DNA from: Riemerella anatipestifer
GTDB lineage: Bacteria > Bacteroidota > Bacteroidia > Flavobacteriales > Weeksellaceae
DNA length: 64,000 nt
Direction: 5' to 3' (one strand)
Assembly (NCBI RefSeq): GCF_051132245.1
Contig: NZ_CP081184.1
Shown: piece after piece, positions 5,157 through 26,087 of the stretch
Layout of the letters: each line of letters starts with the position of its first letter
Numbering within the stretch: position 1 is the first letter of the stretch
The notes under the pieces: generated by a model
What the model was told of the DNA's origin: nothing
Seen by the model: the letters and a program-made list of their open reading frames with translations, nothing else
Database searches by the model: none
Program-made: the position numbers and the translations under genes

Positions 5157-5180
5157 GGTCGTGTATCAGAGTTAGTGATG
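5157..5180 (+). repeat. Cassette-boundary motif GGTCGTGTATCAGAGTTAGTGATG (copy 1)
   Basis: Near-identical 24-mer recurs directly after each immunity-gene stop codon (5157, 14912, 16712, 19281, 21283, 23815 x2, 23989; partial copy at 6598). Confidence 0.8.
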
Positions 5181-6199: not shown

Positions 6200-6593
6200 T
6201 AAGAAGAATACAGTATTGTTTATATCTTTTGTTATAATTATTACGACTACTGTTTTTACATATCGAAAATTTGTTTTGTTGCCAAATTTTGCCTTAAATG
6301 GAAAATATACGATAGGGGTTGTTGATAAAGTTGAGATGAGTATGAAGGGAAGTATATATAACATATATTTCAAGTATAAAGTTGGAGATATTCTATATTA
6401 TTCTAACAGTTCTCATAAAGTATCAGGTAATCCTAAGAAGATTTACGGGAAAAAGTTTATGGTAAATTACTTAGATGATAACAAAGAAAAATCGGAGATT
6501 ATATTGAGTATTCCTATCCCTGATAGTATAAAATCCGCTCCTGCTGAGGGTTGGAAAGAATTACCAGAATGGGCAAAGAAGGAGAAGAAGTAA
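6189..6593 (+). CDS. Candidate immunity protein for CT-2 (N-terminal TM helix)
   Basis: AT-rich ORF overlapping the orphan-CT stop. Followed by a partial boundary motif at 6598. Confidence 0.45.
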   Translation: MENSKKNTVLFISFVIIITTTVFTYRKFVLLPNFALNGKYTIGVVDKVEMSMKGSIYNIYFKYKVGDILYYSNSSHKVSGNPKKIYGKKFMVNYLDDNKEKSEIILSIPIPDSIKSAPAEGWKELPEWAKKEKK

Positions 6594-6597
6594 TGTA

Positions 6598-6735
6598 TTA
6601 AAGTTAGTGATGCTTATCTCCTATTCACTGCATCAGCCTTGCGTAAAATTTCCATCGAGATGGAAATTTTCCTCCATCGAGATGGAGATTTTTTTCCATC
6701 GAGGAGGAAAAAAGTTTGGGGCGGAGAAGAAATTT
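6598..6735. repeat. Palindromic REP/MITE-like element family A, copy 1 (core AAAATTTCCATC-GA-GATGGAAATTTT). Its 5' end carries a partial cassette-boundary motif (AAGTTAGTGATGCTTATCTCCTATTCACTGCATCAG)
   Basis: Same element at 25718-25850 and 45343-45412, with core CTCGCGTAAAATTTCC-N8-GGAAATTTTACGCGAG. Confidence 0.7.
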
Positions 6736-10100: not shown

Positions 10101-10834
10101 ATACGAATAATAATCCTATAATGTTGATAGACCCAACGGGTATGGAAGCAGAAGACCCGCCAACGAAATCACAATATATAGGACAGATTTACAAAGACGA
10201 CACGGGTACTTTTGTAGGAGGAAAGGACGGTTCTTGGAATGCAACAAGAAATGACGGCTCTAAAGAAACTATAATACCAGAGGTTAACTTGACGGCGAAG
10301 TCAAAGAGTAGTCAGAATGAACAAGCTGCAAGAATGCGTTTAAGCCAAGCTATAGAGAATACTAAAGCAGGGCAATCAATGAAATCTTTAGAGAGTTTTA
10401 TGTTTTATGATATGCCAATGAATATAGCAGGAGGAGAGTTAATTTCTGCTGGTTTAAAGGCTGCAAATATCTCTACAAGAGTTGGTAATTTTTTAAGTAG
10501 ATTTACGACAGCAGAGGGTTTTATGGGAGGAGCTATAGGTTTTAGATTACCGTTTAATTTAAATGTAGGATTGTATGCATCAGAAAATACACTTACATAT
10601 GGAACTTTTAAATGGAGTACCATTGCACCTAAAGTTTTAACTAAGAATGAATGGTTTGGGAGAAATATGCTTCAAATAACTCCAGAGTTTCAGTCAACAT
10701 TAGGCAGTTGGAGTAAGCAAGTTATTCCCAAAGGAACTTATATAAAGGTGGGATTAGTAGGTCAGCAAAGAGGAAATGCTCTGGGAACTTGGGTGCAGAT
10801 TTATGCTCCAAATAGAGTCCCATTTATTAAATAA
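7160..10834 (+). CDS. 5'-truncated rhs duplicate (rhs fragment 2). Near-identical to main rhs residues ~397-1335 from nt ~7356 on. The non-homologous N-terminal 65 codons are read through repeat B1. It carries a distinct Gly-rich CT (CT-3) after DPTGMEAEDPPTKSQ
   Basis: ~2.8-kb near-identical duplication of 1264-4050. The junction (KGERSSLRYEYD) coincides with the end of repeat B1. No credible native start; likely expressed only after recombination into the main gene or from an internal start. Confidence 0.75.
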   Translation: MQVVPSKALCYSRKGWQRLPHRHKAVGSFDVGVARSKSEQPDPSSGFQHWRGIRPRKGKGRQLTDKGERSSLRYEYDEETHSHLTKITDHFGYETRTAYDYRFNAPLEVTDRNGEQLHYTIDAKGRTTHILAPKEAAAGVPYTVAYDYYPEAKVPYAKTRNYDAEHGKDIITYTYTDGLGRTLQVKKTAALFQGKNQADAERLIVSGKQVYDALGRVVESYYPTTETPSEAFSTQVSTVTPTTTAYDEKDRPILQTLPDGSTVATAYEVSETAGTKTLKTTVTDALGRVSHSATDVLGRTLKQVQPTGIETTYHYNAQGELLKVTDAEGHQTLSEYDLLGRRTQLTHPDAGITTLAYDAAGNLIRRQTAQIREQMPDAAIEYHYDHNRLQEIRYPKHPENNVRYHYGKQSESPRRRGRLWLVEDASGGTEYFYGSMGEVEKEIRSLRITPTEVHTYITEYGYDSFNRIQTMTYPDGEVLDFGYNRAGQLTTLTGKKGNYEYTYLKQQGYDEFEQKVYRQYGNGTETRYTYDPTMRRLATLNTQNTKRTFQDNRYTYDLVGNILQVENQVPIVNYALGGASLYSYSYDELNRLVTAEGTYTGDQSQASYTLNMQYNKLNGIVQKSLTHKQNGKDKGYTLDYTYNNSKHPHALSILKDTTTPKPRTYEYDGNGNPISYEGFKDFRVMVWDEENRMQGLNDNGKLHLYTYDHTGERAVKSSAESQKTVINGVSSAVIVHAENYTAYINPYFVVNKGKFTKHYFEGTSRIVSKLGEGTFHQPTGITAGGIDYIKQSAKVQEAIDSYIRGLNVPPGPPTQHGIYGTPDFTGVEYPSIDWSDISQDQEPPEGWPRPPKFNEPGDVPGPPVQYGDPVKPDNVKGGFGYVDNGIEEKNLYYYHPDHLGSSSYITDVNGDINQHTEYMAFGEVLFDEHKVSRRMPYLFNGKELDSETGLYYYGARYYDPRVSIFLNVDPLVEKTMQPYAYTNNNPIMLIDPTGMEAEDPPTKSQYIGQIYKDDTGTFVGGKDGSWNATRNDGSKETIIPEVNLTAKSKSSQNEQAARMRLSQAIENTKAGQSMKSLESFMFYDMPMNIAGGELISAGLKAANISTRVGNFLSRFTTAEGFMGGAIGFRLPFNLNVGLYASENTLTYGTFKWSTIAPKVLTKNEWFGRNMLQITPEFQSTLGSWSKQVIPKGTYIKVGLVGQQRGNALGTWVQIYAPNRVPFIK
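7195..7323 (+). repeat. GC-rich structured repeat family B, copy 1 (GCGTAAGGGATGGCAGCGG...GTGGCGAGGAGTAAAAGCGAACAGCCCGACCCGAG...TTGGCGGGGGATACGCCC)
   Basis: Copies at 25941-26067 (+) and 45101-45213 (-). An internal hairpin covaries between copies (ACCCCAC/GTGGGGT vs CCACAGC/GCTGTGG vs GCTAC/GTAGC). Confidence 0.7.
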
Positions 10835-11727: not shown

Positions 11728-12285
11728 ATGGCAAAAAGTAAAAATAATGTAATTACCCACGGTTTAAGTGGTAAAGTAGGAGACTTATTGGTATTTAGCC
11801 AAAGAAATGGTAAAACTATAGTATCAAAAGTACCCAAAAAAAGTAATAAGGTAACAGACAAGCAGAAAGAACAAAGGGTCAGATTCCAAGAGGCAGTGTT
11901 ATATACAAAATCAATATCTCAAAAGCCAGACTTGCAAAAATTGTACGAAGAAGAAGCCAAAAGTAAAGGACTAAGTATCAATAATGTTGCAGTAGCAGAC
12001 TTTTTAAAAGCCCCTCAAATAGAAGAAATAGACCTTTCTCATTATACAGGTAAAAAAGGGGAGCCTATTAAAATCAAGGCTTTTGATGATTTTAAAGTAA
12101 AAAAAGTAACTGTAAGAATAGAAAATTCAGACAGTACCTTAGTAGAAGAGGGGGAAGCAGTAGAAGAAGGTTTATATTGGGTTTATACAACCACCTCTAA
12201 TAATGCAGAATTATCGGGCGATAAAATCACAATTAGAGCATATGATTTTTCGGACAATATGACAGAAAAAGAAGAAGGGATATAA
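11728..12285 (+). CDS. Hypothetical protein (185 aa, Lys/Glu-rich)
   Basis: Clean ORF ending in the hairpin GGGATATAAGTATCCC; no recognisable family. Confidence 0.35.
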   Translation: MAKSKNNVITHGLSGKVGDLLVFSQRNGKTIVSKVPKKSNKVTDKQKEQRVRFQEAVLYTKSISQKPDLQKLYEEEAKSKGLSINNVAVADFLKAPQIEEIDLSHYTGKKGEPIKIKAFDDFKVKKVTVRIENSDSTLVEEGEAVEEGLYWVYTTTSNNAELSGDKITIRAYDFSDNMTEKEEGI

Positions 12286-12289
12286 GTAT

Positions 12290-12366
12290 CCCTCTCGGAG
12301 TTCTCTCGAACACATCTCGAACCTACTCCGAAGCGATACGCAAAAAAAATAGGCTGTCAATATGGC
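12290..12366 (+). repeat. Variant-B cassette leader segment (CGGAGTTCTCTCGAACACATCTCGAACCTACTCCGAAGCGATACGCA)
   Basis: Matches the variant-B leader of the 19320 cassette; precedes rhs fragment 3. Confidence 0.6.
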
Positions 12367-12450
12367 AGTAGAGCAGCAGAATTTTGAAATAGCACGAGGA
12401 AAAGGAGTATATCTTACGGCACCGAAACCCGTTATACTTACGACCCTACA

Positions 12451-14532
12451 ATGAGGCGTTTGGCAACGCTCAACACCCAAAATACCAAACGAACCTTCCA
12501 AGACAACCGCTATACTTACGATTTAGTGGGGAACATCTTGCAGGTGGAGAACCAAGTCCCAATCGTGAACTACGCTTTGGGTGGAGCAAGTAACTATCAA
12601 TACCAATACGACGAACTTAACCGTCTAATAAGAGCGACAGGAACTTATACAGGCGAGGCAACTTCTGCGGAGTACCAGCTCCAAATGCAGTACAATAAGC
12701 TCAACGGTATTGTTCAAAAATCCTTAACCCATAAGCAAAACGGTAAGGATAAAGGTTATACATTAGATTATACCTATAACAACCCTAAACACCCTCACGC
12801 TTTAAGTATCTTAAAAGATACTACCACGCCTAAACCTCGCACTTACGAGTACGATGGCAATGGTAATCCTATCTCTTACGAAGGCTTTAAGGATTTTAGA
12901 GTAATGGTATGGGACGAGGAGAATCGTTTGCAAGGATTAAATGATAACGGTAAGTTGCATTTATATACTTACGACCACACAGGCGAGAGAGCCGTAAAGA
13001 GCAGTGCAGAGAGCCAAAAAACGGTGATTAACGGCGTAAGTTCCGCCGTCATCGTTCACGCGGAGAATTATACGGCTTATGTTAATCCTTATTTTGTAGT
13101 TAATAAGGGTAAGTTTACTAAGCATTATTTTGAAGGTACAAGCCGTATTGTGTCAAAATTGGGAGAGGGAACATTTCATCAGCCAAGTGGACTAATGGCA
13201 GGCGGTATAGACTACATTAAACAAAGTGCGAAAATACAGGAAGCCATAGACCAATATATCAAAGGATTAAACATTCCGCCAGGTCCTCCTACTCAACACG
13301 GCATTTATGGAACGCCTGATTTTACTGGCGTAGAATATCCGTCGATTGACTGGAGTGATATATCCCAAGACCAAGAGCCGCCCGAAGGGTGGCCACGCCC
13401 ACCTAAGTTTAACGAGCCGGGCGATGTACCGGGTCCGCCAGTGCAATATGGCGACCCAGTGAAACCAGAAACGGTAGAGGGTGGTTTTGGATTTAAGGAT
13501 AATGGCGTGGAGGAAAAGAATTTATACTACTATCACCCTGACCACCTCGGCAGTAGCAGTTATATTACAGATGCTAATGGCGATGTAAACCAACATACGG
13601 AATATATGGCGTTTGGAGAAGTGTTATTTGACGAGCATAAAGTGAGCAGAAGAATGCCTTATTTGTTTAATGGAAAGGAGCTGGATAGTGAGACGGGATT
13701 GTATTATTACGGTGCGAGATATTATGATGCGAGAGTAAGTTTGTGGCTCGGTACAGACCCATTGAGTGGGTATAACCCAATAATGGAAACAGAGCATTAT
13801 ATAGATGGTCAGCATAACGGAGGAGTATTTAACCCAATGAATGGAGCGACTTACTCTTATACATATCAAAATCCTGTGGTGTTTATAGATCCTAATGGAA
13901 AACAAACCTATTCTTCAACTATCATTGGTACTATTTTAAAACCATATAATTCAGATTATTACAGATTTAGAGAAAGTGCTGCATACCTTTTAAGTAAAAC
14001 ATCAGGTGTGAGTTTTGAAAAAATAAAAGCAGGTAGAATAATTAAGAGTAATCCCGAAGTATTTAATATCCCTTTTTATAGTTCAGGCTCAATAACACTT
14101 CCTTTAGGTGGTAAGAAAAACATTATTTCAACAAAAAACTTTTTTAAGAGCGGTTATAATAGATTGATAGGATATTTGGAGCATATGGCACATGAAGTTA
14201 AACACTTTGATCATATAGATGCTCATAATGCAGATTTAGAAAAATATATTACTGAATTTTCAAAACAGTATATTAAAGCTGGTTCACATGATGGAGCAAA
14301 GTATGAAAGACAAGCTGATTTTGGAGAGTATGTAATGGGAGGATTTGTAGATTTTACTGATAGGTATTATGGTAAAAATGAATTAGCGAAAATATTTGAA
14401 AATAAATCCAATACAGAAAAAGATGTTATGGGAAGAATAGATCAATGGTGGGGAAATTTTCAAAAATCTCCTGAGTATAAAAAAGCATTAGTTGATTATT
14501 ATAAAGAAAGAGTTGATAAAAGTGAAAAATAA
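12451..14532 (+). CDS. 5'-truncated rhs duplicate (rhs fragment 3). Homologous to main rhs from residue ~853 (GTETRYTYDPTMRRLATLN; homology from nt ~12419). Its CT (CT-4) contains an HEVKH (HExxH-like) motif
   Basis: Near-identical to 2633-4000 of the main gene. The RHS core ends DARVSLWLGTDPL, then a divergent pre-toxin segment and a ~260-aa CT with LEHMAHEVKHFDH. Confidence 0.75.
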   Translation: MRRLATLNTQNTKRTFQDNRYTYDLVGNILQVENQVPIVNYALGGASNYQYQYDELNRLIRATGTYTGEATSAEYQLQMQYNKLNGIVQKSLTHKQNGKDKGYTLDYTYNNPKHPHALSILKDTTTPKPRTYEYDGNGNPISYEGFKDFRVMVWDEENRLQGLNDNGKLHLYTYDHTGERAVKSSAESQKTVINGVSSAVIVHAENYTAYVNPYFVVNKGKFTKHYFEGTSRIVSKLGEGTFHQPSGLMAGGIDYIKQSAKIQEAIDQYIKGLNIPPGPPTQHGIYGTPDFTGVEYPSIDWSDISQDQEPPEGWPRPPKFNEPGDVPGPPVQYGDPVKPETVEGGFGFKDNGVEEKNLYYYHPDHLGSSSYITDANGDVNQHTEYMAFGEVLFDEHKVSRRMPYLFNGKELDSETGLYYYGARYYDARVSLWLGTDPLSGYNPIMETEHYIDGQHNGGVFNPMNGATYSYTYQNPVVFIDPNGKQTYSSTIIGTILKPYNSDYYRFRESAAYLLSKTSGVSFEKIKAGRIIKSNPEVFNIPFYSSGSITLPLGGKKNIISTKNFFKSGYNRLIGYLEHMAHEVKHFDHIDAHNADLEKYITEFSKQYIKAGSHDGAKYERQADFGEYVMGGFVDFTDRYYGKNELAKIFENKSNTEKDVMGRIDQWWGNFQKSPEYKKALVDYYKERVDKSEK

Positions 14533-14911: not shown

Positions 14912-14935
14912 GGTCGTGCATCAGAGTTAGTGATG
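14912..14935 (+). repeat. Cassette-boundary motif (GGTCGTGCATCAGAGTTAGTGATG)
   Basis: Starts 1 nt after the immunity stop. Confidence 0.8.
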
Positions 14936-14944
14936 CTAAAATAA

Positions 14945-15078
14945 ACTAAAAAATGTACTGTCAAACTGTCATAAAAACGAAAAGTGCGTTTCGGGGTTTC
15001 GTCGGACCTACGACGGAGACACGACGGAGCGATGACGGAGCGGTACGCAATAAAAAAAGACTGCCAAAATGGCAAAAA
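14945..15078 (+). repeat. Conserved cassette leader, variant A (ATGTACTGTCAAACTGTCATAAAAA...GTTTCGGGGTTTCGTCGGACCTACGACGGAGACACGACGGAGCGATGACGGAGCGGTACGCAATAAAAAAAGACTGCCAAAATGGCAAAAAGG). In-frame ATG at 14953
   Basis: Near-identical copies at 16745-16878 and 21325-21458; variant B at 19312-19448. Contains 3x ACGACGGAG-like direct repeats and the hairpin TGCCAAAATGGCA. Confidence 0.8.
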
Positions 15079-16491
15079 GGCAAGTTTACAAAACATTATT
15101 TTGAAGGTACAAGCCGTATTGTGTCAAAATTGGGAGAGGGAACATTTCATCAGCCAACAGGTCTAACCGCTGGCGGGATAGATTATATCAAGCAGTCAGC
15201 TAAGGTACAAGAGGCAATTGATAGTTATATTAGAGGTCTGAATGTACCACCGGGACCACCAACCCAGCACGGTATATATGGTACACCTGACTTTACAGGA
15301 CAAGAGTACCCAAGTATAGATTGGTCAGACATTAGCCAAGACCAAGAGCCACCAGAGGGTTGGCCACGCCCGCCGAAGTTTAACGAACCGGGTGATGTTC
15401 CGGGACCTCCGGTACAGTATGGCGACCCAGTGAAACCCGATAATGTGAAAGGTGGGTTTGGTTATGTGGATAATGGGATAGAAGAGAAAAACTTGTATTT
15501 CTATCACCCCGACCATTTAGGAAGTTCTTCGTATATCACGGATAAGGACGGTAATATCAATCAGCATACCGAATATATGGCATTTGGTGAGGTATTGTTT
15601 GATGAGCACAAAGTGAGTAGGAGAATGCCATACTTATTTAATGGTAAAGAATTAGACTCTGAAACGGGGTTGTATTATTATGGAGCGAGGTATTATGATC
15701 CAAGAGTGTCTATATTCTTAAATGTAGACCCGTTAGCGGAGAAAGCACCAAATTGGACACCATATCGTTATGGTTTTAATAATCCGATAAAATATACTGA
15801 CCCTACAGGACTTTTTGAAACTAAGTTTGGTGCTTGGTGGCATCGATTATGGAATGGAGGAGGTCATAGTAGTAGTATCAAGTATAATGAAAAAAATAAA
15901 GAATATTATTATAATAGACTTAATAATTCTACAGGAAATGAAATTAACTTTTCTGCTGTATATGGTGGAAAATCAAAAATTTCAATCAAGAATACTGCTG
16001 GATATGAATTTAAGGGAAGCGTTGAATTAGGACTTTTAAAGGTAAGAGATAAAGGAACAACAGGATATGAAATTAAAGGACCAACAATTACTTTAGGTGA
16101 GTTATCTATTGGTAAAAGTACTTCGGGTGATAAATTTTTGAAGGCGTATAATCCTTTCTATGAGTTGGGAATGGGAAGAAGGTTAAAAGGCGGTTTGGGC
16201 GGAGTAAAACTTGAAACGAAATATGGAGATTTTAAAGCATTCCGAAGATGGGAACTCCCAACAGTTTGGTTTCATATTGACCATAATGAAATAAATAATG
16301 TAGCTTCATATATGGAGTACAAAGATGAAGTAGGTATAGGTAAACCATGGTTAGAGTTTAAGGTAGAAAGAAGTAATCGGGGCATAATATTGAGATGTGG
16401 AATTCAAGAAGATTGGGGAATATCTATCAACAATGTGCTTGGTATAAAAGGTGAGTTTAGATATCAAGGTATAACAGAAATATCCTACTAA
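14953..16491 (+). CDS. Orphan rhs C-terminal cassette 4. Leader peptide MYCQTVIK... is fused in frame to the RHS core tail from GKFTKHYFEG (nt ~15079). CT-5 (~260 aa) is unclassified
   Basis: Homology to main rhs residues ~1080-1320, then a divergent CT after DPLAEKAPNWTPYRYGFNNPIKYTDPTG. Confidence 0.7.
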   Translation: MYCQTVIKTKSAFRGFVGPTTETRRSDDGAVRNKKRLPKWQKGKFTKHYFEGTSRIVSKLGEGTFHQPTGLTAGGIDYIKQSAKVQEAIDSYIRGLNVPPGPPTQHGIYGTPDFTGQEYPSIDWSDISQDQEPPEGWPRPPKFNEPGDVPGPPVQYGDPVKPDNVKGGFGYVDNGIEEKNLYFYHPDHLGSSSYITDKDGNINQHTEYMAFGEVLFDEHKVSRRMPYLFNGKELDSETGLYYYGARYYDPRVSIFLNVDPLAEKAPNWTPYRYGFNNPIKYTDPTGLFETKFGAWWHRLWNGGGHSSSIKYNEKNKEYYYNRLNNSTGNEINFSAVYGGKSKISIKNTAGYEFKGSVELGLLKVRDKGTTGYEIKGPTITLGELSIGKSTSGDKFLKAYNPFYELGMGRRLKGGLGGVKLETKYGDFKAFRRWELPTVWFHIDHNEINNVASYMEYKDEVGIGKPWLEFKVERSNRGIILRCGIQEDWGISINNVLGIKGEFRYQGITEISY

Positions 16492-16493
16492 AT

Positions 16494-16709
16494 ATGATTA
16501 TAGTAAAAACAATTATAATTACGGTTATTGTTATTTTATTTGGAATAATCTTCTATAATATGGTAATATATGATAAGATAATAGATAAAGAATTGAGTGG
16601 AAAGGAACTTGATGCTTTAGAAAGAAAGAAAGTTTATAAATTAAAAATTTACTTTTTTTTGATGTTTGTGTTTATAGTTTTAGAATTTCTTATAGAAGGA
16701 ATAGGATAA
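16494..16709 (+). CDS. Candidate immunity protein for CT-5 (71 aa, two TM helices)
   Basis: Starts 3 nt after the toxin stop; followed by a degenerate boundary motif at 16712. Confidence 0.4.
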   Translation: MIIVKTIIITVIVILFGIIFYNMVIYDKIIDKELSGKELDALERKKVYKLKIYFFLMFVFIVLEFLIEGIG

Positions 16710-16744
16710 TAGGTCGTATATCAAACTATGTAATAATAAAATAA

Positions 16745-16878
16745 GCTAAAAAATGCACTGTCAAACTGTCATAAAAAGGAGAAATGCGTTTCGGGGTTTC
16801 GTCGGATCTACGACGGAGACACGACGGAGCGATGACGGAGCGGTACGCAATAAAAAAAGACTGCCAAAATGGCAAAAT
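16745..16878 (+). repeat. Conserved cassette leader, variant A (copy 2)
   Basis: See 14945-15078. Confidence 0.8.
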
Positions 16879-18240
16879 AACAAGTTTACCAAGCATTACT
16901 TTGAAGGTACAAGCCGTATTGTTTCTAAGTTAGGGGAAGGTACATTTCATCAACCGTCTGGTATAAATGCAGGAGGAATTGATTATGTGAAACAATCCGC
17001 AAAAGTGCAGGAAGCCATAGACCAATACATCAAAGGATTAAACATTCCGCCAGGTCCGCCAACGCAACACGGCATATACGGCACACCTGACTTTACAGGA
17101 CAAGAGTACCCAAGTATAGATTGGTCAGACATTAGCCAAGACCAAGAGCCACCAGAGGGTTGGCCAAGACCGCCGAAGTTTAACGAGCCGGGCGATGTGC
17201 CGGGTCCGCCAGTACAGTATGGCGACCCCGTGAAACCCGATAATGTGAAAGGTGGGTTTGGTTATGTAGATAATGGGATAGAGGAGAAAAACTTGTATTT
17301 CTATCACCCTGACCATTTGGGTTCAAGTTCATACATTACAGACGCTAATGGCGATGTAAACCAACATACCGAATATATGGCGTTTGGGGAAGTGTTATTT
17401 GACGAACACAAGGTAAGCCGACGAATGCCGTATCTTTTCAATGGTAAGGAACTGGATAGCGAGACGGGGTTATACTACTACGGTGCGAGGTACTACGACC
17501 CAAAAACAAGTATTTGGCTGAATGTAGACCCTTTGGCGGAGAAAACAATGCAACCGTATGCCTATACGAATAATAACCCTATAATGCTGATAGATCCTGA
17601 TGGACAAGAACCTACGCCTTTTTATATAAAACTATTAGGGCATATAGGATATTATGCTTGGAGGGATAGAGATTTTAGGAGACAAAATCCAGGTAAAACA
17701 GCTCCTGATTATTATATGGAATATGGTCATAAATACATAAATAGGTTCACTAATGAAACTAGCAAAACTATGTCACGTTCGGGTAAGATTTGGTTACGAG
17801 AGGCTCGTAAAAACTTACAAGTAGCGATTGAAGATAGATTAGCTAAACCTGATGGTGCTGATTTAGAAAGAGATAATGATAAATTTAGAAGTTTTGCTTT
17901 TGATTCCCATATCAGTGCGTATTGGAATGAGACAGGAAAAGTACCATTATACACATTAGGTGCTGTGGATTTAACAAAAATATTGTTAACACCAGATGTT
18001 AAAGACTTAGTTAGTTCTGATGGATTACGTCAAGTAAAAGGCATGATAGGTAAATTTATAGTTGAAAAACCAGAAGAATTGAAGCGCATTTTAGGTGATG
18101 CTTACGATAATAAGGGGGAAATTATGAATTTGATAGAGAATAAAGCAAAAAAAGAGGGTGTAAGCATAAACAAAATTAAAAATGCTTTAAGTCCATTACT
18201 GATGCTTATTCCAAGTAAAGAACAAAATAAAACAGAATGA
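16753..18240 (+). CDS. Orphan rhs C-terminal cassette 5; CT-6 (~210 aa after DPDGQEP) is unclassified
   Basis: Same leader plus RHS tail architecture; distinct CT. Confidence 0.7.
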   Translation: MHCQTVIKRRNAFRGFVGSTTETRRSDDGAVRNKKRLPKWQNNKFTKHYFEGTSRIVSKLGEGTFHQPSGINAGGIDYVKQSAKVQEAIDQYIKGLNIPPGPPTQHGIYGTPDFTGQEYPSIDWSDISQDQEPPEGWPRPPKFNEPGDVPGPPVQYGDPVKPDNVKGGFGYVDNGIEEKNLYFYHPDHLGSSSYITDANGDVNQHTEYMAFGEVLFDEHKVSRRMPYLFNGKELDSETGLYYYGARYYDPKTSIWLNVDPLAEKTMQPYAYTNNNPIMLIDPDGQEPTPFYIKLLGHIGYYAWRDRDFRRQNPGKTAPDYYMEYGHKYINRFTNETSKTMSRSGKIWLREARKNLQVAIEDRLAKPDGADLERDNDKFRSFAFDSHISAYWNETGKVPLYTLGAVDLTKILLTPDVKDLVSSDGLRQVKGMIGKFIVEKPEELKRILGDAYDNKGEIMNLIENKAKKEGVSINKIKNALSPLLMLIPSKEQNKTE

Positions 18241-18241
18241 T

Positions 18242-19279
18242 ATGAAAAAATTACTAATGTGTTTTCTGATGATTTTAGTAGCTATGGGATGTGAAGATTA
18301 TGTTAAAGAAAAAGATAATATTGAAATTCTCATATTTGAAGGGATGAAAGGAGAGTCGAAGTATATGTTTTTTATCAATCCGAAAGTAGGTTATTCTTTT
18401 AATAATCACACTGTAAGTGATTGGCATAGAGTTACAGAAGAACAACTCAAACAACCTAACTTTTTCCCAAAATCTACTGATATTTCTATTATTTATAAGA
18501 CCATAGATGGCGGTAAAACTTGGGCTAGTGTATATTCAATAGATGATTTTCGTTTTGATAAAGTTGCTTTTTCTGATAAAAATCGGGTTTACATAAAAAT
18601 CATTAATAGTAAAGAGACTTTGAATAATAAACTTTTAAAGTTTGAATTGGAAACTAATAAGGCTACTGTTTTTAGTTTTAATTTTGAAAGAATGGGTGAA
18701 ATATGGGCAATCAATCAAAAAGTTTTCATAAATAGCAAAAATAACGGTATTAATACTTTATATAGTATTGATAATGATTTTACTAAAATAGATTCAATAG
18801 AAGAAAATAAAATTTTTAAAGATAAAATAACTTTATTAGACAATACTCCATATACTATAACTTGGGATAATGAACTTTATAATATAGAAAAAAAAGAAGC
18901 TATTAGGTTATGTGATATTGAACTTGAGAGTATTATTGAAATGGGGAAATCTAATATATTAGTAGCTTGTAAAAAAGAATTTTCTATTATCCTCGTTGAA
19001 TATGACACAAGTACCAAAAAAAGAAAATATTTAAAGGAGTTTTCTGGTTATGATATAGTGAAAGGTTTGCAAAGTAATGATAAGGTGATTTGTGGATTTA
19101 TAGGAAGTATAAAGGGAATGTTTACAGAATATGATTTATTTTATAGTCTAGATAAAGGTAAAACATGGCATATACAAGAACTTAAAGAAAAGAGTTATAT
19201 CTCCTCTAGTGCTTTAGTGGATGATATATTATATATTTTTAGTGGGGGTAAGAGGATGCAAAAAATTTTATTAAAATAG
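18242..19279 (+). CDS. Candidate immunity protein for CT-6: lipoprotein with BNR/Asp-box-like repeats (DGGKTW, DKGKTW), probably a beta-propeller
   Basis: Lipobox LVAMGC; two SxDxGxTW-like motifs; position directly 3' of the toxin. Confidence 0.45.
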   Translation: MKKLLMCFLMILVAMGCEDYVKEKDNIEILIFEGMKGESKYMFFINPKVGYSFNNHTVSDWHRVTEEQLKQPNFFPKSTDISIIYKTIDGGKTWASVYSIDDFRFDKVAFSDKNRVYIKIINSKETLNNKLLKFELETNKATVFSFNFERMGEIWAINQKVFINSKNNGINTLYSIDNDFTKIDSIEENKIFKDKITLLDNTPYTITWDNELYNIEKKEAIRLCDIELESIIEMGKSNILVACKKEFSIILVEYDTSTKKRKYLKEFSGYDIVKGLQSNDKVICGFIGSIKGMFTEYDLFYSLDKGKTWHIQELKEKSYISSSALVDDILYIFSGGKRMQKILLK

Positions 19280-19280
19280 G

Positions 19281-19304
19281 GGTTGCGTATCAGAGTTAGT
19301 GATG
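19281..19304 (+). repeat. Cassette-boundary motif (GGTTGCGTATCAGAGTTAGTGATG)
   Basis: Directly after the immunity stop. Confidence 0.8.
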
Positions 19305-19311
19305 TAAAAAC

Positions 19312-19448
19312 GTTAAAAAATGTACTGTCAAACTGTCATAAAAAGTAAAAATAAGTTTCGGGGTTGTATCGGAGTTCTCTCGAAGAGATCTCGAACCTAC
19401 CCCGAAGCGGTACGCAGTAAAAAAAGACTGCCAAAATGGCAAAAAGGC
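19312..19448 (+). repeat. Conserved cassette leader, variant B. The central 40 nt are replaced by ATCGGAGTTCTCTCGAAGAGATCTCGAACCTACCCCGAAGCG; same length and frame as variant A
   Basis: Flanks identical to variant A; the middle matches the 12290-12366 element. Confidence 0.8.
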
Positions 19449-20921
19449 AAGTTTACCAAGCATTATTTTGAAGGCACAAGCCGTATTGTTTCTAAGTTAG
19501 GGGAAGGAACTTTCCACCAACCAAGTGGACTAATGGCAGGAGGAATTGATTATGTGAAACAATCCGCAAAAGTGCAGGAAGCCATAGACCAATACATCAA
19601 AGGATTAAACATTCCGCCAGGTCCGCCAACGCAACACGGCGTATACGGCACACCTGACTTTACAGGGCAGGAGTACCCAAGTATAGATTGGTCAGACATT
19701 AGCCAAGACCAAGAGCCACCCGAAGGGTGGCCAAGACCGCCTAAGTTTAACGAACCGGGAGATGTACCGGGTCCTCCAGTGCAATACGGTGACCCAGTGA
19801 AACCCGAAACGGTAGAGGGCGGATTTGGATTTAAGGATAATGGCGTGGAGGAAAAGAATTTATACTACTATCACCCTGACCACTTAGGTAGCAGTAGTTA
19901 CATTACAGACAAAGACGGCAACATTAGTCAGCACACAGAGTACATCGCCTTTGGCGAGGTGCTGTTTGACGAGCATAATGTGAGTAGGAGAATGCCGTAT
20001 CTTTTCAATGGTAAGGAGTTGGATAGTGAAACAGGATTGTATTATTACGGTGCGAGGTATTACGACCCAAGAGTGTCTATATTCTTAAATGTAGACCCGT
20101 TAGTAGAAAAAACAATGCAACCATATGCCTATACTAATAATAATCCTATAATGCTAATAGACCCAACGGGAATGGAGGCAGAGGATTGTCCTACTTGCCC
20201 CAAACCGTTATATGAAGGACAAGAGATAAAAGGGAGTGATGGCAAACTGTATGGGGCAGCAAGACAGCAAGGAGATATACATTGGGATGTTCCAACAAAA
20301 CCCCTAGAATGGTTACCGCAAACAAATATTGAAGAAGTTACTTTAACGGGTAAAGCTAAATCATCTTTCACAAGTACAGATACATCTCTGTCAAATTATA
20401 ATTTTCCAGTATCTTCACTTCCAAATGGTAAGGTTGAGATGATGAGTGGTATGTTGGATATAGTTGGAATGCTTCTAGCTAACTCTGAATTGGGGAATAA
20501 ATATATGGTGGGAGTAGCTGGGGTAGCAGCAATAGCACTAACGAAAGGTAAAGCAACAGATGATGTACTAAAAGCTGAAAGTAATTTATGGAAAGTTGGT
20601 AAATATAGTGAATTAAGGGGAACGCAAGTAGGTTTACAAGCACATCATGTTGGGCAGAGTGCATTAATGAAAAAAATGGTAAAAGGTTATAATCATAATT
20701 CAGCACCTTCAATACTTGTTCCTGAAATAGGACATGTTTTTAAGGGGCCATTTGGAAGAATTTCTACATCTACAAAGGGATTAACTACCCCTCGTCAAGT
20801 TTTGGCAAGGGATATTTTTGAATTACGTAGAGTTTATGGTCCACAAGGAATACCTAATACTTCACTACAAAAATTGATTCAAATGAATAAAACAATGTAT
20901 CCTTCATCATTTTCTAAATAA
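19320..20921 (+). CDS. Orphan rhs C-terminal cassette 6. CT-7 contains a QAHHVGQ motif (possible Tox-AHH/HNH-fold nuclease) and shares the DPTGMEAEDCPTCPKP linker with cassette 2
   Basis: Leader plus RHS tail plus distinct CT. An AHH tripeptide with a downstream His (GHVFKG) is consistent with AHH-family HNH nucleases, but this is unproven. Confidence 0.7.
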   Translation: MYCQTVIKSKNKFRGCIGVLSKRSRTYPEAVRSKKRLPKWQKGKFTKHYFEGTSRIVSKLGEGTFHQPSGLMAGGIDYVKQSAKVQEAIDQYIKGLNIPPGPPTQHGVYGTPDFTGQEYPSIDWSDISQDQEPPEGWPRPPKFNEPGDVPGPPVQYGDPVKPETVEGGFGFKDNGVEEKNLYYYHPDHLGSSSYITDKDGNISQHTEYIAFGEVLFDEHNVSRRMPYLFNGKELDSETGLYYYGARYYDPRVSIFLNVDPLVEKTMQPYAYTNNNPIMLIDPTGMEAEDCPTCPKPLYEGQEIKGSDGKLYGAARQQGDIHWDVPTKPLEWLPQTNIEEVTLTGKAKSSFTSTDTSLSNYNFPVSSLPNGKVEMMSGMLDIVGMLLANSELGNKYMVGVAGVAAIALTKGKATDDVLKAESNLWKVGKYSELRGTQVGLQAHHVGQSALMKKMVKGYNHNSAPSILVPEIGHVFKGPFGRISTSTKGLTTPRQVLARDIFELRRVYGPQGIPNTSLQKLIQMNKTMYPSSFSK

Positions 20922-20931
20922 TTTAATTTTT

Positions 20932-21270
20932 ATGACGGCAGAAAAATTTATCAATGGTATTTATAAAGAGTGTGTTACAGATCAATTAAAAATATATGAA
21001 AATTTGCTTGAAAATACACCTAAAGCAACTGATCCGACTTGGATTGATATTATAAATATTTATAAAAATCTTAGTGTTAAGGAGAAAAAGTCTTTTATTG
21101 ATTTTTTAAAAATAGTAGAAGTTAATACAGTTGCCTCTATTTTGAGTATTATAGATGGAGATAAGCCAATAAACAATAACTTTCTAACATTTGAATTAAA
21201 GTCAGAAAGTGGGGAAAATATGAGTGGGGACCTTACGTATAGGTTCTTGGAGAAAGATGATCTTATATAA
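20932..21270 (+). CDS. Candidate immunity protein for CT-7 (112 aa, soluble)
   Basis: 10 nt after the toxin stop; followed by a degenerate tandem boundary motif at 21277-21315. Confidence 0.4.
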   Translation: MTAEKFINGIYKECVTDQLKIYENLLENTPKATDPTWIDIINIYKNLSVKEKKSFIDFLKIVEVNTVASILSIIDGDKPINNNFLTFELKSESGENMSGDLTYRFLEKDDLI

Positions 21271-21324
21271 AAGGAGGTGTATATCATGGTTGGGTGTATA
21301 TCAAAGTCAGTAATGTAAAAACAA

Positions 21325-21458
21325 TTTAAAAAATGTACTGTCAAACTGTCATAAAAAGCAAAAATAAGTTTCGGGGTTTCGTCGGACCTACGACGGAGAC
21401 ACGACGGAGCGATGACGGAGCGGTACGCAGTAAAAAAAGGCTGCCAAAATGGCAAAAA
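21325..21458 (+). repeat. Conserved cassette leader, variant A (copy 3). Here it is fused to a different rhs junction (HPHALSILKD, main-gene residue ~1002)
   Basis: The same leader is joined to a more 5' point of the rhs body. Confidence 0.8.
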
Positions 21459-23503: not shown

Positions 23504-23815
23504 ATGAATAATAAGGGTAAAATAAAGCTATTAGCATTGATCTTAATATTATTAGTTTTATTCAAAGAGATTGTGGTATACAAACCTATTTTAAATTTTT
23601 TTCCAACAAATAAAAAAGAAGGAAGAATTATAAATGAGAAAAATTATCTAAGAAGGGGATTTTTAACAGGGGCATTTACATATTCTTATTGTTTTGAAGT
23701 AGAGAATATAGTTTATACTAATGATAGTTATAATGAAAAATATGAAGTGGGAGATATAGTTTTAGTAGAGTATAGTAAGAAATTTCCTTTTATGAATAGA
23801 ATAGTAGAAAAATAG
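23504..23815 (+). CDS. Candidate immunity protein 8b, tandem paralogue of 23164-23484
   Basis: Identical C-terminal sequence GRIINEKN..KFPFMNRIVEK; divergent N-terminal TM segment. Confidence 0.45.
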   Translation: MNNKGKIKLLALILILLVLFKEIVVYKPILNFFPTNKKEGRIINEKNYLRRGFLTGAFTYSYCFEVENIVYTNDSYNEKYEVGDIVLVEYSKKFPFMNRIVEK

Positions 23816-23866
23816 GTCGTGTATCAAAGTTGGTCGTGTATCAAAGTTAGTGATGATGATGATTTA
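23815..23866 (+). repeat. Tandem double copy of the cassette-boundary motif (GGTCGTGTATCAAAGTT GGTCGTGTATCAAAGTTAGTGATGATGATGATTTAGG)
   Basis: Terminal copy of the array, immediately before the IS1-family transposase region; a further copy at 23989-24012. Confidence 0.75.
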
Positions 23867-23972
23867 GGTTATTAAGTGTTTGGTTGTTAGAGGTGATGTT
23901 ATTGTAGATAAGTCTTAAAAGATGAATGATAGATATATTAGAGTAACAAAAAAGTGATAAAAAAGGAGATAA

Positions 23973-24695
23973 ATGATAGAAATTAAGACCTCGTGTATCA
24001 AAGTTAGTGATACCAAGATGTGTCCCCATTGTTTATCAAAAAAAATTATTAAAAATGGACGCACCAAGACCTTAAAACAACAGTATTACTGTAAGGAGTG
24101 TTATCGTCGTTTTATAGATTATTATACCTATCATGCTTATCATTCAGAGATTAACCGCAAAATAGTGATCTATACAAAAGAGGGTTTGGGGATTCGTTCT
24201 ATAGCGAGGGTATTAGGTATATCTGCTACCACTGTACTGAAAAGACTTTTGGCTATAGCTAAAGCATTGTCTTCTCCTTTGATAGCCTACGGAAAGGAAT
24301 ATGAGGTAGATGAGATTTGTAGTTATGTGAGGCATAAAGGAAATAAAATTTGGATTACTTATGCTATGGAGCGTGATAGTGGAAATGTGGTGAGTTTTAA
24401 CATTGGTAGGCGAACTAAAACCACTTTGTCAAAAGTAATTACCACATTGCTTTATAGCCGTCCAAAGCGTATCTATACAGATGGTTTACATCATTACCGC
24501 TACTTGATTCCTCAAAATATACATAAGGTTTCCCGCTATGGCACTAATAAAATAGAACGATTGAACCTAACCTTGAGAACTAAACTAAGGCGTCTAAATA
24601 GGAGAACGATTTGTTTTAGTAAGAGTCTTTGTATGTTTATGGCGATAATGAAAATGATAAGGTTTATAGAATCAGAAGTATTTATTAATAAATAA
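23973..24695 (+). mobile_element. IS1-family transposase gene (fused InsA-like zinc finger/HTH plus InsB-like DDE domain; probable start MCPHCLSKK at 24018). Element termini not identified
   Basis: CPHC...CKEC zinc finger; the C-terminus NKIERLNLTLRTKLRRLNRRTICFSKSLCMFMAIMKMI closely resembles the IS1 InsB C-terminus ([24 protein letters not shown]...). Confidence 0.7.
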
Positions 24696-25699: not shown

Positions 25700-25717
25700 A
25701 TAGATTAAATCGTGATG

Positions 25718-25850
25718 TTAGCTCTCATTCACTGCGTCGGTCTCGCGTAAAATTTCCTGCCCGATGGAAATTTTACGCGAGGCCGACGGAAAAATCACGC
25801 GAGGCTGATGGAAAAAATTTTGCTCCTCGATGGAGTGAAATGGGCTTCGG
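25718..25850. repeat. Repeat family A, copy 2 (CTCGCGTAAAATTTCC-TGCCCGAT-GGAAATTTTACGCGAG perfect 16-bp stem)
   Basis: See 6598-6735. Confidence 0.7.
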
Positions 25851-26067: not shown

Positions 26068-26087
26068 CTGTAAATAAGATGGTGGAG

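What the first reader, a model, noticed from the sequence alone, without database searches (positions are those of the whole stretch)
14912..21458. Conserved boundary-motif-plus-leader spacer precedes each orphan cassette; the leader occurs in two same-length variants that keep an in-frame ATG
Every short orphan cassette is preceded by the same ~150-nt spacer. It starts with the 24-nt boundary motif directly after the previous immunity stop codon. About 15 nt later comes a ~130-nt leader (ATGTACTGTCAAACTGTCATAAAAA-N9-GTTTCGGGGTT-[40 nt]-GGTACGCARTAAAAAAAGRCTGCCAAAATGGCAAAA). The leader carries an ATG in frame with the rhs tail, so each orphan could be translated on its own as MYCQTVIK...-RHS tail-CT. 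The central segment is exactly the same length in variant A (three ACGACGGAG-like direct repeats) and variant B (TCTCGAA-type repeats). Both keep the reading frame, and both keep the TGCCA-AAA-TGGCA hairpin. Standard Rhs orphan modules do not have a dedicated, portable leader like this. Possible roles are a downstream homology arm for double-crossover cassette replacement, an internal promoter or 5' UTR giving independent expression of truncated toxins, or a recognition site for a recombinase.
Basis: seen in the sequence. Interest (0 to 1): 0.78.

Follow-up and report, generated by a model that had tools for sequence, protein, structure and literature searches.

The report
Conserved leader before orphan Rhs toxin cassettes
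Each spare toxin cassette in this Riemerella-like Rhs array starts with the same ~165-base junction, built from the end of an IS1 element, stop codons in all three frames and a strongly conserved leader with an in-frame ATG, which suggests the spare cassettes are kept translatable rather than left as silent debris.

Summary
Four full spacers lie at 14912-15075, 16712-16875, 19281-19442 and 21292-21455, with a fifth partial one at 12251-12367. It is not a local duplication: the same spacer, including variants A and B, occurs in Riemerella anatipestifer, R. columbina, Bergeyella, Ornithobacterium and another Weeksellaceae genome. Two leader blocks are 94-97% identical across 18 copies, while third codon positions of the adjacent rhs tail are only about 49% identical and a 10-nt island between the blocks varies freely. 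That pattern indicates purifying selection on the nucleotide sequence, not the peptide.

The 24-nt boundary motif is the left-terminal sequence of an IS1-family element. The link after it usually carries TAA in all three frames just before AAAAAATG. ATG to junction is exactly 123 nt and in frame in 18 of 20 copies; the two exceptions have one 11-nt repeat unit fewer or more. The leader is joined to at least three different rhs positions.

Best reading (about 40%): a portable stop-and-restart translation leader that keeps displaced rhs-CT/immunity modules translated, and along which cassettes recombine. No promoter, linked recombinase, known RNA family or base-pair covariation was found. This is a new variant of known Rhs orphan arrays.

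The parts
74..4720 (+). 3' part of the full-length rhs gene that heads the array (N-terminus lies outside the window); C-terminal metallopeptidase toxin domain
   Evidence: Pfam RHS_repeat, TcdB_toxin_midN, Tox-MPTase2. Syntenic with the 3044-aa rhs of R. anatipestifer NJ-1, locus L007.
5157..5180 (+). Boundary motif copy, followed by about 20 nt resembling the IS1 left end and then the short orphan 5204-6199; no leader
   Evidence: the orphan has the Rhs_assc_core domain
6589..6612 (+). Degenerate boundary motif overlapping the stop codon of ORF 6189-6593
7160..10834 (+). Long rhs orphan of 1224 aa. Homology to the first rhs gene starts at 7353. Its ATG lies 64 codons upstream, in frame, inside a copy of a dispersed genomic repeat.
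11728..12285 (+). Gene of a conserved ~186-aa Flavobacteriia family (here called ORF186). In several genomes it heads an alternative orphan module.
12251..12367 (+). Partial leader: variant-B 11-nt repeats plus Box3, and no Box1 ATG. The Box3 ATG at 12362 is frameshifted relative to the rhs frame here.
12451..14532 (+). rhs orphan (693 aa as listed) with its C-terminal toxin domain; putative immunity ORF at 14492-14911
14912..14935 (+). Boundary motif of spacer 1, the same sequence as the left terminus of an IS1-family element
14936..14952 (+). Link CTAAAATAAACTAAAAA: TAA in all three frames within 16 nt of the ATG, then an A-rich -1 to -6 start context
   Evidence: A at -3 and -6 favour initiation in Flavobacterium (PMC6847099)
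14949..14977 (+). Box1, AAAAATGTACTGTCAAACTGTCATAAAAA, containing the ATG at 14953. Mean identity 97% across 18 copies from 10 fetched loci (8 genome assemblies) plus the window.
14978..14987 (+). Hypervariable 10-nt island (mean identity 66%)
14988..15042 (+). GTTTCGGGGTT followed by 11-nt periodic units, variant A (core GACGGAG). There are three perfect-register units.
15040..15075 (+). Box3, GCGGTACGCAATAAAAAAAGACTGCCAAAATGGCAA: an A7 run, the TGCCA/TGGCA hairpin and a second ATG at 15069 that is out of frame. The sharp 3' edge is fused to rhs. Mean identity 94%.
14953..16491 (+). Orphan ORF 1: leader, rhs tail and C-terminal toxin domain (512 aa). Putative immunity ORF at 16494-16709 starts 2 nt after the stop.
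16712..16875 (+). Spacer 2 (variant A), ATG at 16753; orphan 16753-18240; putative immunity ORF 18242-19279
19281..19442 (+). Spacer 3 (variant B, core CTCGAAS), ATG at 19320; orphan 19320-20921; putative immunity ORF 20932-21270
21292..21455 (+). Spacer 4 (variant A), ATG at 21333, fused to rhs 318 nt further upstream in the core (9095-type junction). Orphan 21333-23171; putative immunity ORFs 23164-23484 and 23504-23815.
23815..23855 (+). Boundary motif with a 17-nt tandem partial duplication; its second copy is the left terminus of the IS1-family element
23830..24659 (+). IS1-family element, cut short on its right side compared with L007. A second, inner motif copy at 23989-24012 encodes the transposase N-terminus ..SCIKVSD.

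Best explanation
The spacer is an inherited cassette-junction module of Weeksellaceae rhs arrays. It is not protein-coding sequence in the usual sense.

Shown:
1. Its first 24 nt are the left-terminal sequence of an IS1-family element.
2. The link that follows usually carries TAA in all three frames, so whatever immunity ORF lies upstream is terminated.
3. AAAAAATG follows within 6 nt. The 123-nt leader is open and in frame with the 5'-truncated rhs tail in 18 of 20 copies.
4. Box1 and Box3 are held almost invariant at every codon position, while a 10-nt island, the peptide sequence and the neighbouring rhs synonymous sites drift.
5. The 3' two-thirds (11-nt repeats plus Box3) form a unit that also sits behind a 186-aa gene, where the Box3 ATG starts 705/727-aa rhs ORFs.

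Inferred:
- The array is read through as one transcript from upstream.
- Ribosomes that finish the immunity gene terminate in the link and restart at the Box1 ATG. Bacteroidia do not use Shine-Dalgarno sequences; they use A-rich contexts.
- The displaced rhs-CT is therefore translated, and the immunity gene that begins between -8 and +10 nt of its stop codon stays coupled and protected from polarity.
- The shared module also gives cassettes a common sequence along which they are reshuffled.
For: Frame evidence:
- ATG to TGGCA is 122 nt in 17 of 19 copies and also in the Ornithobacterium copy. The Box1 ATG is in frame with rhs in both junction classes, 9413-type and 9095-type.
- A third rhs junction, in Ornithobacterium (QGYDEFEQ), is fused in the same 'LPKW' frame.
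- A short divergent leader in L071 also appears to carry an in-frame ATG, judged by reading the alignment.
- P(no in-frame stop) after shuffling is 0.10 for variant A and 0.065 for variant B.
- The only two out-of-frame copies differ by exactly one 11-nt unit: L016 has one fewer and L085:11109 one more.

Stop-and-restart context:
- Three-frame stops lie within 16 nt upstream of the ATG in 11 of 19 copies.
- All six bases before the ATG are A; A at -3 and -6 are positive determinants of initiation in Flavobacterium (PMC6847099).
- The immunity ORFs start at +2, +1, +10 and -8 nt relative to the orphan stop codons.

Conservation:
- Box1 is 97% identical, Box3 94%, repeats within a variant 96%, the N10 island 66%, and third positions of the rhs tail 49%.
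- N10 and link alleles are shared between genomes but differ within a genome, so the boxes are not being kept alike by conversion within one genome.

Other:
- The Box3 ATG opens 705/727-aa rhs ORFs in R. anatipestifer loci L084 and L085.
- In Snodgrassella alvi, rhs orphans that keep their start sites are transcribed and toxic (PMC5727410).
Against: - No expression data of any kind were available.
- No promoter was found, so transcription has to be assumed to come from upstream.
- A start region does not need 29 + 36 invariant nucleotides and a periodic repeat block. The boxes must therefore be recognised by something not identified here.
- Predicted RNA folds partly sequester the ATG.
- Several copies in the ORF186 context are frameshifted or carry stops (window 12362, L013, L084:173). 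Two Box1 copies are out of frame.
- A fragment holding only the last ~200 aa of the Rhs shell plus toxin has no obvious use as a protein.
- The copies are related by descent, so the frame statistics rest on only 3 or 4 independent junction and variant events.
Confidence: 0.4

Rival explanations
1. The spacer is a DNA-level recombination or mobilisation module. It would be either the shared homology through which whole rhs-CT/immunity cassettes are exchanged between arrays and species, or a site bound by a transposase, recombinase or nucleoid protein. In that case Box1, the 11-bp periodic units and the Box3 palindrome are protein-binding sites, and the sharp 3' edge at the palindrome is a strand-exchange point.
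For: - Both edges are sharp and have variable flanks: unrelated immunity genes on the left and at least three rhs positions on the right.
- The left edge is an IS1-family terminus, and an IS1 copy sits in two arrays.
- All motif copies are co-oriented, including those in Flavobacterium.
- The 11-bp periodicity is maintained in three allelic forms: A, B and the Cruoricaptor form GTAAGAS.
- All four combinations of link type with A/B, and of A/B with junction class, are present.
- The block pattern of conservation suggests recognition of specific sequences.
Against: - No recombinase gene is linked to the arrays in the window, L007, L084 or L085.
- No inverted copy of the motif exists anywhere, and the two spacer ends are not inverted repeats.
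- No target duplications were seen.
- The same few junction positions recur beside highly diverged tails, so the junctions look old and inherited rather than made repeatedly.
- The C-to-T change in the hairpin (6 of 19 copies) keeps a G-U pair in + strand RNA but gives a mismatch in DNA.
- Homology alone would not leave a 10-nt hypervariable island between invariant boxes.
Confidence: 0.25
2. The spacer is a cis-regulatory RNA leader that gates expression of the orphan. Alternative pairings would form between GUUUCGGGG or the Box1 CUGUCAU and the repeat units, with the second AUG held in the Box3 hairpin. Slippage of the 11-nt unit might add a phase-variable on/off switch.
For: - The + strand RNA folds far better than shuffled sequence (z = -3.7 for variant A and -5.0 for B), whereas the - strand gives -0.3 and -3.0.
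- The hairpin polymorphism is compatible with G-U pairing only on the + strand.
- The repeat units are complementary to the upstream segments in both variants.
- Unit number is 2, 3 or 4 among 20 copies, and only 3 keeps the frame.
Against: - There are 0 compensatory base pairs, and the predicted folds of A and B differ.
- No Rfam family matches, even at E up to 10.
- Three imperfect units are few for a hypermutable tract, and 18 of 20 copies have three units.
- No variation within a single strain could be examined.
Confidence: 0.15
3. The spacer is a non-functional scar. An IS1 end plus a fragment of an older module was created once and has been carried along passively with the cassettes by duplication, gene conversion and horizontal transfer. 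The open frame is then a coincidence.
For: - The motif is IS-derived.
- Partial, truncated and decayed copies exist (L011:3883, L011:7924 and L071:1474; window 12251).
- Only a few independent junction events underlie all copies.
Against: - Box1 and Box3 are 94-97% identical across five genera, while adjacent synonymous sites are near saturation (49%) and an internal 10-nt island drifts (66%).
- The few variable sites in Box3 show all four allele combinations within 10 nt, as expected if only those sites are free to change.
- Alleles are shared across species rather than made uniform within a genome.
Confidence: 0.1
4. The spacer is an internal promoter that transcribes each orphan and its immunity gene independently.
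For: - The conserved non-coding block lies directly upstream of each ORF.
- IS ends often carry promoters (general knowledge).
Against: - No TTG-N17-23-TAnnTTTG match (at least 5 of 6) lies on the + strand in any spacer. The same scan finds a perfect site upstream of the HU-HIG gene at 6739.
- The sigma-70 scan is at background level.
- The most conserved bases lie at and after the ATG, not upstream of it.
Confidence: 0.08

Closest known systems
Rhs orphan toxin/immunity arrays formed by C-terminal displacement (Jackson 2009; Koskiniemi 2014, as cited in PMC5727410)
   Same: A full-length rhs gene is followed by 5'-truncated rhs-core fragments. Each has its own polymorphic C-terminal toxin and a small downstream ORF, and each shares core homology that allows it to be brought back into use by recombination.
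   Different: Here the orphans do not simply begin inside the core. Four of the seven in the window are capped by a conserved non-rhs module, made of an IS1 end, three-frame stops and an ATG leader, that is under nucleotide-level constraint across genera. I found no description of such a module in the papers searched.
Snodgrassella alvi Rhs loci, in which orphans keep translational starts and are transcribed (Steele et al. 2017, PMC5727410)
   Same: Truncated downstream rhs genes with intact starts that appear to be expressed units rather than silent reserves.
   Different: No shared portable leader, IS-derived boundary or repeat block is reported there. Expression has not been measured for the present organism.
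Integron gene-cassette arrays with attC sites
   Same: Co-oriented compact cassettes. A recurring 60-170-nt element starts at or next to the stop codon of each cassette, and the variants have the same length and foldability but different sequence.
   Different: There is no integrase gene, and no R''/R' (RYYYAAC/GTTRRRY) core sites were seen. The cassette 5' ends are homologous rhs sequence, and the element carries a start codon in frame with the next ORF.
IS1-family insertion sequences and their solo ends
   Same: The 24-nt motif is the left terminus of an IS1-family element in the window, in L007 and in a Riemerella plasmid. IS ends commonly block incoming translation.
   Different: Beyond the motif the leader has no significant similarity to the IS. 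No right-end inverted copy was found. The solo ends sit at a fixed place, right after immunity genes, and always in one orientation.
Contingency loci switched by tandem repeats whose unit length is not a multiple of three
   Same: An 11-nt unit lies between the start codon and the body of the ORF. Copies with 2 or 4 units are out of frame and copies with 3 are in frame.
   Different: There are only about 3 imperfect units, and no variation within a strain has been shown. The repeat block also occurs upstream of a start codon in the ORF186 context, where it cannot shift a frame.

Membership tests
Rhs orphan (C-terminal displacement) array | A full-length YD-repeat rhs gene at the head of the locus | tested here: met
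   Pfam RHS_repeat and TcdB_toxin_midN on 74-4720. The 3044-aa homologue in L007 is syntenic.
Rhs orphan (C-terminal displacement) array | Downstream 5'-truncated genes keep the Rhs-associated core and carry divergent C-termini | tested here: met
   TIGR03696 Rhs_assc_core on the two orphans tested, 14953-16491 and 5204-6199, plus weak Pfam RHS hits on the other orphans. The tails are 70-93% identical, then the C-termini diverge.
Rhs orphan (C-terminal displacement) array | Each toxin is followed by a cognate immunity gene | not testable with these tools
   Small ORFs follow every orphan at -8 to +10 nt from its stop. One has a weak Imm63 hit. Immunity function was not tested.
IS1-family element terminus (for the 24-nt motif) | The sequence lies at the outer edge of the segment that carries an IS1 transposase, in independent insertion contexts | tested here: met
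   Window 23830-24659 matches L007 15345-16173 at 98.7% with different left flanks. An outer copy is also present in a non-rhs plasmid context. The transposase hits NF033558 and PF03400.
IS1-family element terminus (for the 24-nt motif) | An inverted copy at the other end of the element | tested here: not met
   No minus-strand match with up to 5 mismatches in the window or in any of the 86 loci held at that point. The local alignment to the right-hand regions is weak.
Integron attC site | A linked tyrosine integrase (intI) and an attI site | tested here: not met
   No integrase among the Pfam-scanned ORFs of the window or among the called genes of L084 and L085.
Integron attC site | R''/R' core sites (RYYYAAC ... 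GTTRRRY) bounding an imperfect palindrome | tested here: not met
   Judged by reading the alignment: no such pair lies at the spacer edges. No formal model was run.
Known structured RNA family (Rfam 15) | Covariance-model match at the gathering score | tested here: not met
   0 hits in the window. Only chance-level snoRNA/sRNA hits with E of 1.5 or more.
Bacteroidetes sigma-A promoter | TTG about 19 nt upstream of TAnnTTTG on the coding strand | tested here: not met
   No + strand match in any spacer. There is a perfect match at 6739 before the HU-HIG gene.
Phase-variable tandem-repeat switch | A repeat unit not divisible by 3 inside the ORF, with copy-number changes that shift the frame | tested here: inconclusive
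   Units of 2, 3 and 4 occur among copies from different genomes and cassettes, and the frame follows the unit number. No comparison within a strain or at the same locus was possible (one search returned a single genome).
Miniature inverted-repeat element (MITE) | Terminal inverted repeats and a target-site duplication | tested here: not met
   The two ends are unrelated (read). The flanks are an immunity gene on one side and rhs on the other, not an interrupted sequence.

The most novel reading that the evidence does not exclude
The spacer is a purpose-built cassette adaptor. Its three-frame stops and in-frame restart codon would make every displaced toxin/immunity pair an expressed unit. The 11-nt repeat block (2, 3 or 4 units; only 3 is in frame; three allelic repeat sequences with the same period) would act as a slippage switch or a protein-binding array that turns individual orphans on and off, or marks them for exchange. 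That would be an integron-like or contingency-locus logic for polymorphic toxins, not described so far for Rhs systems.
Probability: 0.15. Interest if true: 0.85.

Novelty: new variant of a known kind. Interest (0 to 1): 0.6.

Why it matters
Orphan toxin modules are usually treated as silent spare parts that matter only after recombination into the main gene. A junction module kept nearly invariant across genera, while the neighbouring coding sequence saturates at silent sites, points the other way. This module stops the upstream reading frame and offers an in-frame start to the truncated toxin gene. That suggests selection acts on the orphans, or on their immunity genes, where they sit.

It also gives a concrete, mutable handle for testing whether and why orphan cassettes are translated in a phylum that lacks Shine-Dalgarno-led initiation: the ATG, one 11-nt unit, Box1 and Box3. 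Finally, it links IS1-family ends to the architecture of rhs arrays throughout Flavobacteriia.

Tried and rejected
1. Genome-collection scan with TACGCANNAAAAAANAGNCTGNCAANATGGCA. I mis-specified the pattern by one base in the A run, so its 0 hits mean nothing.
2. Protein search with the 52-aa leader peptide found no candidates. This is uninformative, probably because orphans cluster under other representatives; gene callers do call ORFs from the Box1 ATG in L084 and L085.
3. Metagenome scan with ACTGTCAAACTGTCATAAAAA gave two chance matches only.
4. blastn of the spacer against plasmids found nothing.
5. Idea that the whole leader is a decayed 5' end of an IS1 transposase gene (M-x-C-x-x-C ... 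KNGK). nhmmer and shuffled local alignments show no significant similarity beyond the 24-nt motif. Rejected.
6. MITE idea: no inverted termini and no interrupted target. Rejected.
7. attC idea: no integrase and no core sites. Rejected.
8. Sigma-54 promoter and Pho-box readings of TGGCA.. and CTGTCA..CTGTCA: the spacings are wrong (judged by eye).
9. Box3 as a minus-strand terminator. It is flagged by the scan, but the common C-to-T variant would break the stem on that strand.
10. -1 frameshifting at A AAA AAG plus the hairpin: the heptamer is not aligned with the leader frame (judged by eye).
11. Relation between the variant-A repeats and the CGAYGGA-rich array-end element (6597-6711, 25700-26088). 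That element is a dispersed genomic repeat, also present at 45101-45405, and the spacer HMM does not hit it.
12. Covariation test of RNA structure: 0 compensatory pairs.
13. Polymorphism of repeat number within a species: only one extra genome could be retrieved.

Full report
**1. What is in the window**

The left 26 kb is one rhs array on the + strand.
- ORF 74-4720 is the 3' part of a full-length Rhs protein (RHS_repeat, TcdB_toxin_midN, metallopeptidase toxin tip).
- It is followed by seven 5'-truncated rhs fragments, each with its own C-terminal toxin domain (CT) and small downstream ORFs: 5204-6199, 7160-10834, 12451-14532, 14953-16491, 16753-18240, 19320-20921 and 21333-23171.
- 7160-10834, which looks like a main gene, is itself an orphan. 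Its homology to the first gene starts only at 7353.
- An IS1-family transposase gene lies at 23973-24695.

The closest relatives of the rhs tail are Riemerella anatipestifer (93% aa), Bergeyella sp. and R. columbina. The end of the array, including the IS1 copy, is syntenic with R. anatipestifer NJ-1. The source genome itself is on record only as a fragmented short-read assembly whose contigs break inside the leader.

**2. The observation**

Four co-oriented spacers lie at 14912-15075, 16712-16875, 19281-19442 and 21292-21455 (chance expectation 0.00). Each consists of the following, with coordinates for copy 1:
- the 24-nt motif (14912-14935);
- a 17-nt link;
- Box1, AAAAATGYACTGTCAAACTGTCATAAAAA, with the ATG at 14953;
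- a 10-nt variable island;
- GTTTCGGGGTT plus 11-nt periodic units;
- Box3, GCGGTACGCARTAAAAAAAGRCTGCCAAAATGGCAA, ending at 15075.

Variant A (unit core GACGGAG) and variant B (core CTCGAAS; copy 3) align without gaps. ATG to junction is 123 nt in both, with no in-frame stop. The ORFs continue for 495-612 aa.

A fifth, partial copy (12251-12367) has variant-B units and Box3 but no Box1. It follows the 185-aa ORF 11728-12285.

The motif alone also occurs at 5157, 6589, 23815/23832 and 23989.

The leader's 3' edge is fixed, but it is fused to different rhs positions: the equivalent of 9413 in three orphans and 9095 in orphan 21333.

**3. It is not a local artefact**

An HMM of the four spacers finds full copies in:
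- R. anatipestifer NJ-1 (two copies), RCAD1090, and two further assemblies, L084 (three copies) and L085 (two copies);
- Bergeyella sp. RCAD1439 (five copies);
- R. columbina;
- Weeksellaceae bacterium TAE3-ERU29.

A further copy, found by reading the fetched sequence, lies in Ornithobacterium rhinotracheale.

Both variants and both junction classes recur in other species and assort independently. A and B each occur with the 9413-type and the 9095-type junction, and the two main link types each occur with A and with B. None of the fetched Flavobacterium loci has the leader.

Three null results are uninformative. My first genome-collection pattern was mis-typed. The peptide search found nothing even though such ORFs are called elsewhere. 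The metagenome scan gave only chance hits.

**4. Conservation pattern**

Mean pairwise identity across the 18 standard-length copies:

| Segment | Mean identity |
|---|---|
| Box1 | 97% |
| Box3 | 94% |
| Repeat block, within a variant | 96% |
| 10-nt island | 66% |
| rhs tail (next 300 nt), codon positions 1+2 | 82% |
| rhs tail (next 300 nt), codon position 3 | 49% |

- Every codon position in Box1 is fixed. The changes that do occur alter the peptide (Y/H, N/S, P/S), and variants A and B encode unrelated middles. The constraint is therefore on the nucleotides, not on a protein.
- Island and link alleles are shared between genomes but differ within a genome. This argues against homogenisation within a genome and for long-term purifying selection.
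- The three variable Box3 sites show all allele combinations within 10 nt, as expected if only those sites are free to change.

**5. The boundary motif**

- Window 23830-24659 and L007 15345-16173 are 98.7% identical. The shared segment begins exactly at the motif, but with different left flanks: an immunity stop codon in the window, and the middle of an rhs tail (...GEGTF) in L007.
- An IS1-family element on a Riemerella plasmid, in a non-rhs context, has the same outer motif. It also has a second copy about 155 nt further in, overlapping the N-terminal codons of the transposase. The window element has the same arrangement.
- The motif is therefore the left-terminal sequence of a Flavobacteriia IS1 group.
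- It occurs only in the rhs orientation in all 35 hits. These include Flavobacterium loci, where the motif plus about 85 nt resembling the IS left end sits between the immunity gene and the operon terminator.
- No inverted right-end copy was found.
- Beyond the motif the leader is not significantly similar to the IS.

**6. The link**

In 11 of 19 copies the link reads CTAAAATAAACTAAAAAATG. This places TAA in all three frames within 16 nt of the ATG, with the last TAA in the ATG's own frame 6 nt upstream. The six bases before the ATG are all A. A at -3 and -6 favours initiation in Flavobacterium, whose ribosomes ignore Shine-Dalgarno sequences (PMC6847099).

**7. The frame**

- ATG to TGGCA is 122 nt in 17 of 19 copies plus the Ornithobacterium copy.
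- The two exceptions are 111 nt (L016, one unit fewer) and 133 nt (L085:11109, one unit more). Both are out of frame.
- Three different rhs junctions (KGKF.., KHPH.. and QGYDEFEQ.. in Ornithobacterium) are fused in the same 'LPKW' frame.
- The chance of no in-frame stop is 0.10 for variant A and 0.065 for variant B.
- Because the copies are related, this amounts to a handful of independent events. It is suggestive, not proof.

**8. A second context**

- The repeat block plus Box3 also follows a gene of a widespread ~186-aa Flavobacteriia family (ORF 11728-12285 in the window). This arrangement is seen in R. columbina, R. anatipestifer, Ornithobacterium and, in diverged form, Cruoricaptor.
- In L084 and L085 the Box3 ATG (CTGCCAAAATGGCAGTAGAG...) opens 727/705-aa rhs ORFs. 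In the window copy and some others this ATG is frameshifted or followed by a stop.
- Cruoricaptor has a third repeat allele (core GTAAGAS) with the same 11-nt period.
- Where the 186-aa gene sits away from rhs, it is followed by an ordinary terminator or by unrelated genes.
- The unit tied to the 5' end of orphans is therefore repeats plus Box3. Box1 and the link are one of two alternative 5' partners.

**9. Tests of other readings**

- *Promoter:* no Bacteroidetes -33/-7 match on the + strand of any spacer, although the scan finds a perfect one before the HU-HIG gene. Sigma-70 matches are at background level.
- *RNA:* the + strand folds well (z = -3.7 and -5.0). However, the folds of A and B differ, RNAalifold finds no compensatory pair, and Rfam has nothing. 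The frequent C-to-T change in the hairpin keeps a G-U pair only in + sense RNA.
- *Recombinase or integron:* no integrase or recombinase is linked to the arrays.
- *MITE:* the ends are not inverted repeats.

**10. Interpretation**

*Shown:* an inherited, nucleotide-constrained junction module consisting of an IS1 terminus, three-frame stops, an A-rich ATG and a leader of fixed length fused in frame to truncated rhs.

*Inferred, about 40%:* it works as a stop-and-restart translation leader on a read-through transcript. This would keep displaced rhs-CT ORFs translated, along with the immunity genes that start within -8 to +10 nt of their stop codons. Orphans that keep start sites and are transcribed are known in Snodgrassella alvi (PMC5727410), so expressed orphans are not unprecedented. 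A shared portable leader is not described in the papers I could search.

The degree of conservation exceeds what a start region needs, so an unidentified partner that recognises Box1, the repeats and Box3 is likely. This keeps two rivals alive: a recombination or mobilisation site (about 25%) and a regulatory RNA or phase switch (about 15%). A passive scar (about 10%) fits the conservation pattern poorly.

**11. Verdict**

This is a new variant of a known kind of system (Rhs orphan arrays), of moderate to good interest, and it can be tested directly with start-site mapping and a few point mutations.

Noticed in passing
window 23815-23855 and 23830-24659: The IS1-family element starts with a 17-nt tandem partial duplication of the motif. 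Compared with the copy in R. anatipestifer NJ-1 (L007 15345-16173), it loses similarity after 24659, so its transposase C-terminus is replaced. The IS right end could not be defined.
   Followed up: partly
window 23164-23484 and 23504-23815: Two tandem paralogous small ORFs (106 and 103 aa), 89% identical over 220 nt, lie after the last orphan. The same protein precedes leader-bearing orphans in R. anatipestifer L084 and L085.
   Followed up: partly
window 25700-26088; also 6597-6711, 7195-7323 and 45101-45405 (minus strand): A dispersed repeat, partly G+C-rich, with palindromic CCATCGAGATGGA-like units closes the array. It also occurs away from rhs. A piece of it supplies the 64 in-frame codons and the ATG in front of the long orphan 7160-10834.
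   Followed up: partly
window 6776-7153: An HU-HIG family DNA-binding protein gene sits between two parts of the array, 6 nt before the ATG of the long orphan. It has a textbook Bacteroidetes promoter: TTTG, 20 nt, then TAGCTTTG at 6739.
   Followed up: partly
window 11728-12285; L080, L084, L085, L088, L090, L092: This 185-aa ORF belongs to a widespread, unannotated ~186-aa Flavobacteriia family (410 hits). Some members carry a precomputed hit to Pfam PF17936. In R. anatipestifer one paralogue follows a Fib_succ_major/PTL_trimer protein, while others sit inside rhs arrays, preceded by the boundary motif.
   Followed up: partly
L046, L048, L054, L059, L028, L031, L032, L062 (Flavobacterium species): In these Flavobacterium rhs loci, the motif plus about 85 nt resembling the IS1 left end occurs downstream of the rhs tail match with no transposase nearby. 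In L048, the one locus read in full, it lies between the immunity gene's stop codon and the operon terminator. The IS1-derived boundary is therefore much more widespread than the leader.
   Followed up: partly
L048 12200-12313: A long (TTAG)n tetranucleotide microsatellite lies just downstream of the rhs operon terminator in Flavobacterium notoginsengisoli.
   Followed up: no
window 26088-30899 (minus strand): A 1603-aa DUF3686/DUF7902/AAA ATPase gene abuts the array end. A large minus-strand ORF occupies the same position in L007.
   Followed up: no
window 15040-15075 and the equivalent positions in the other spacers: Box3 contains the heptamer A AAA AAG followed 2-3 nt later by a hairpin that holds a second ATG. 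On the minus strand the same bases look like a small hairpin plus T-run terminator. Neither reading fits all copies.
   Followed up: partly
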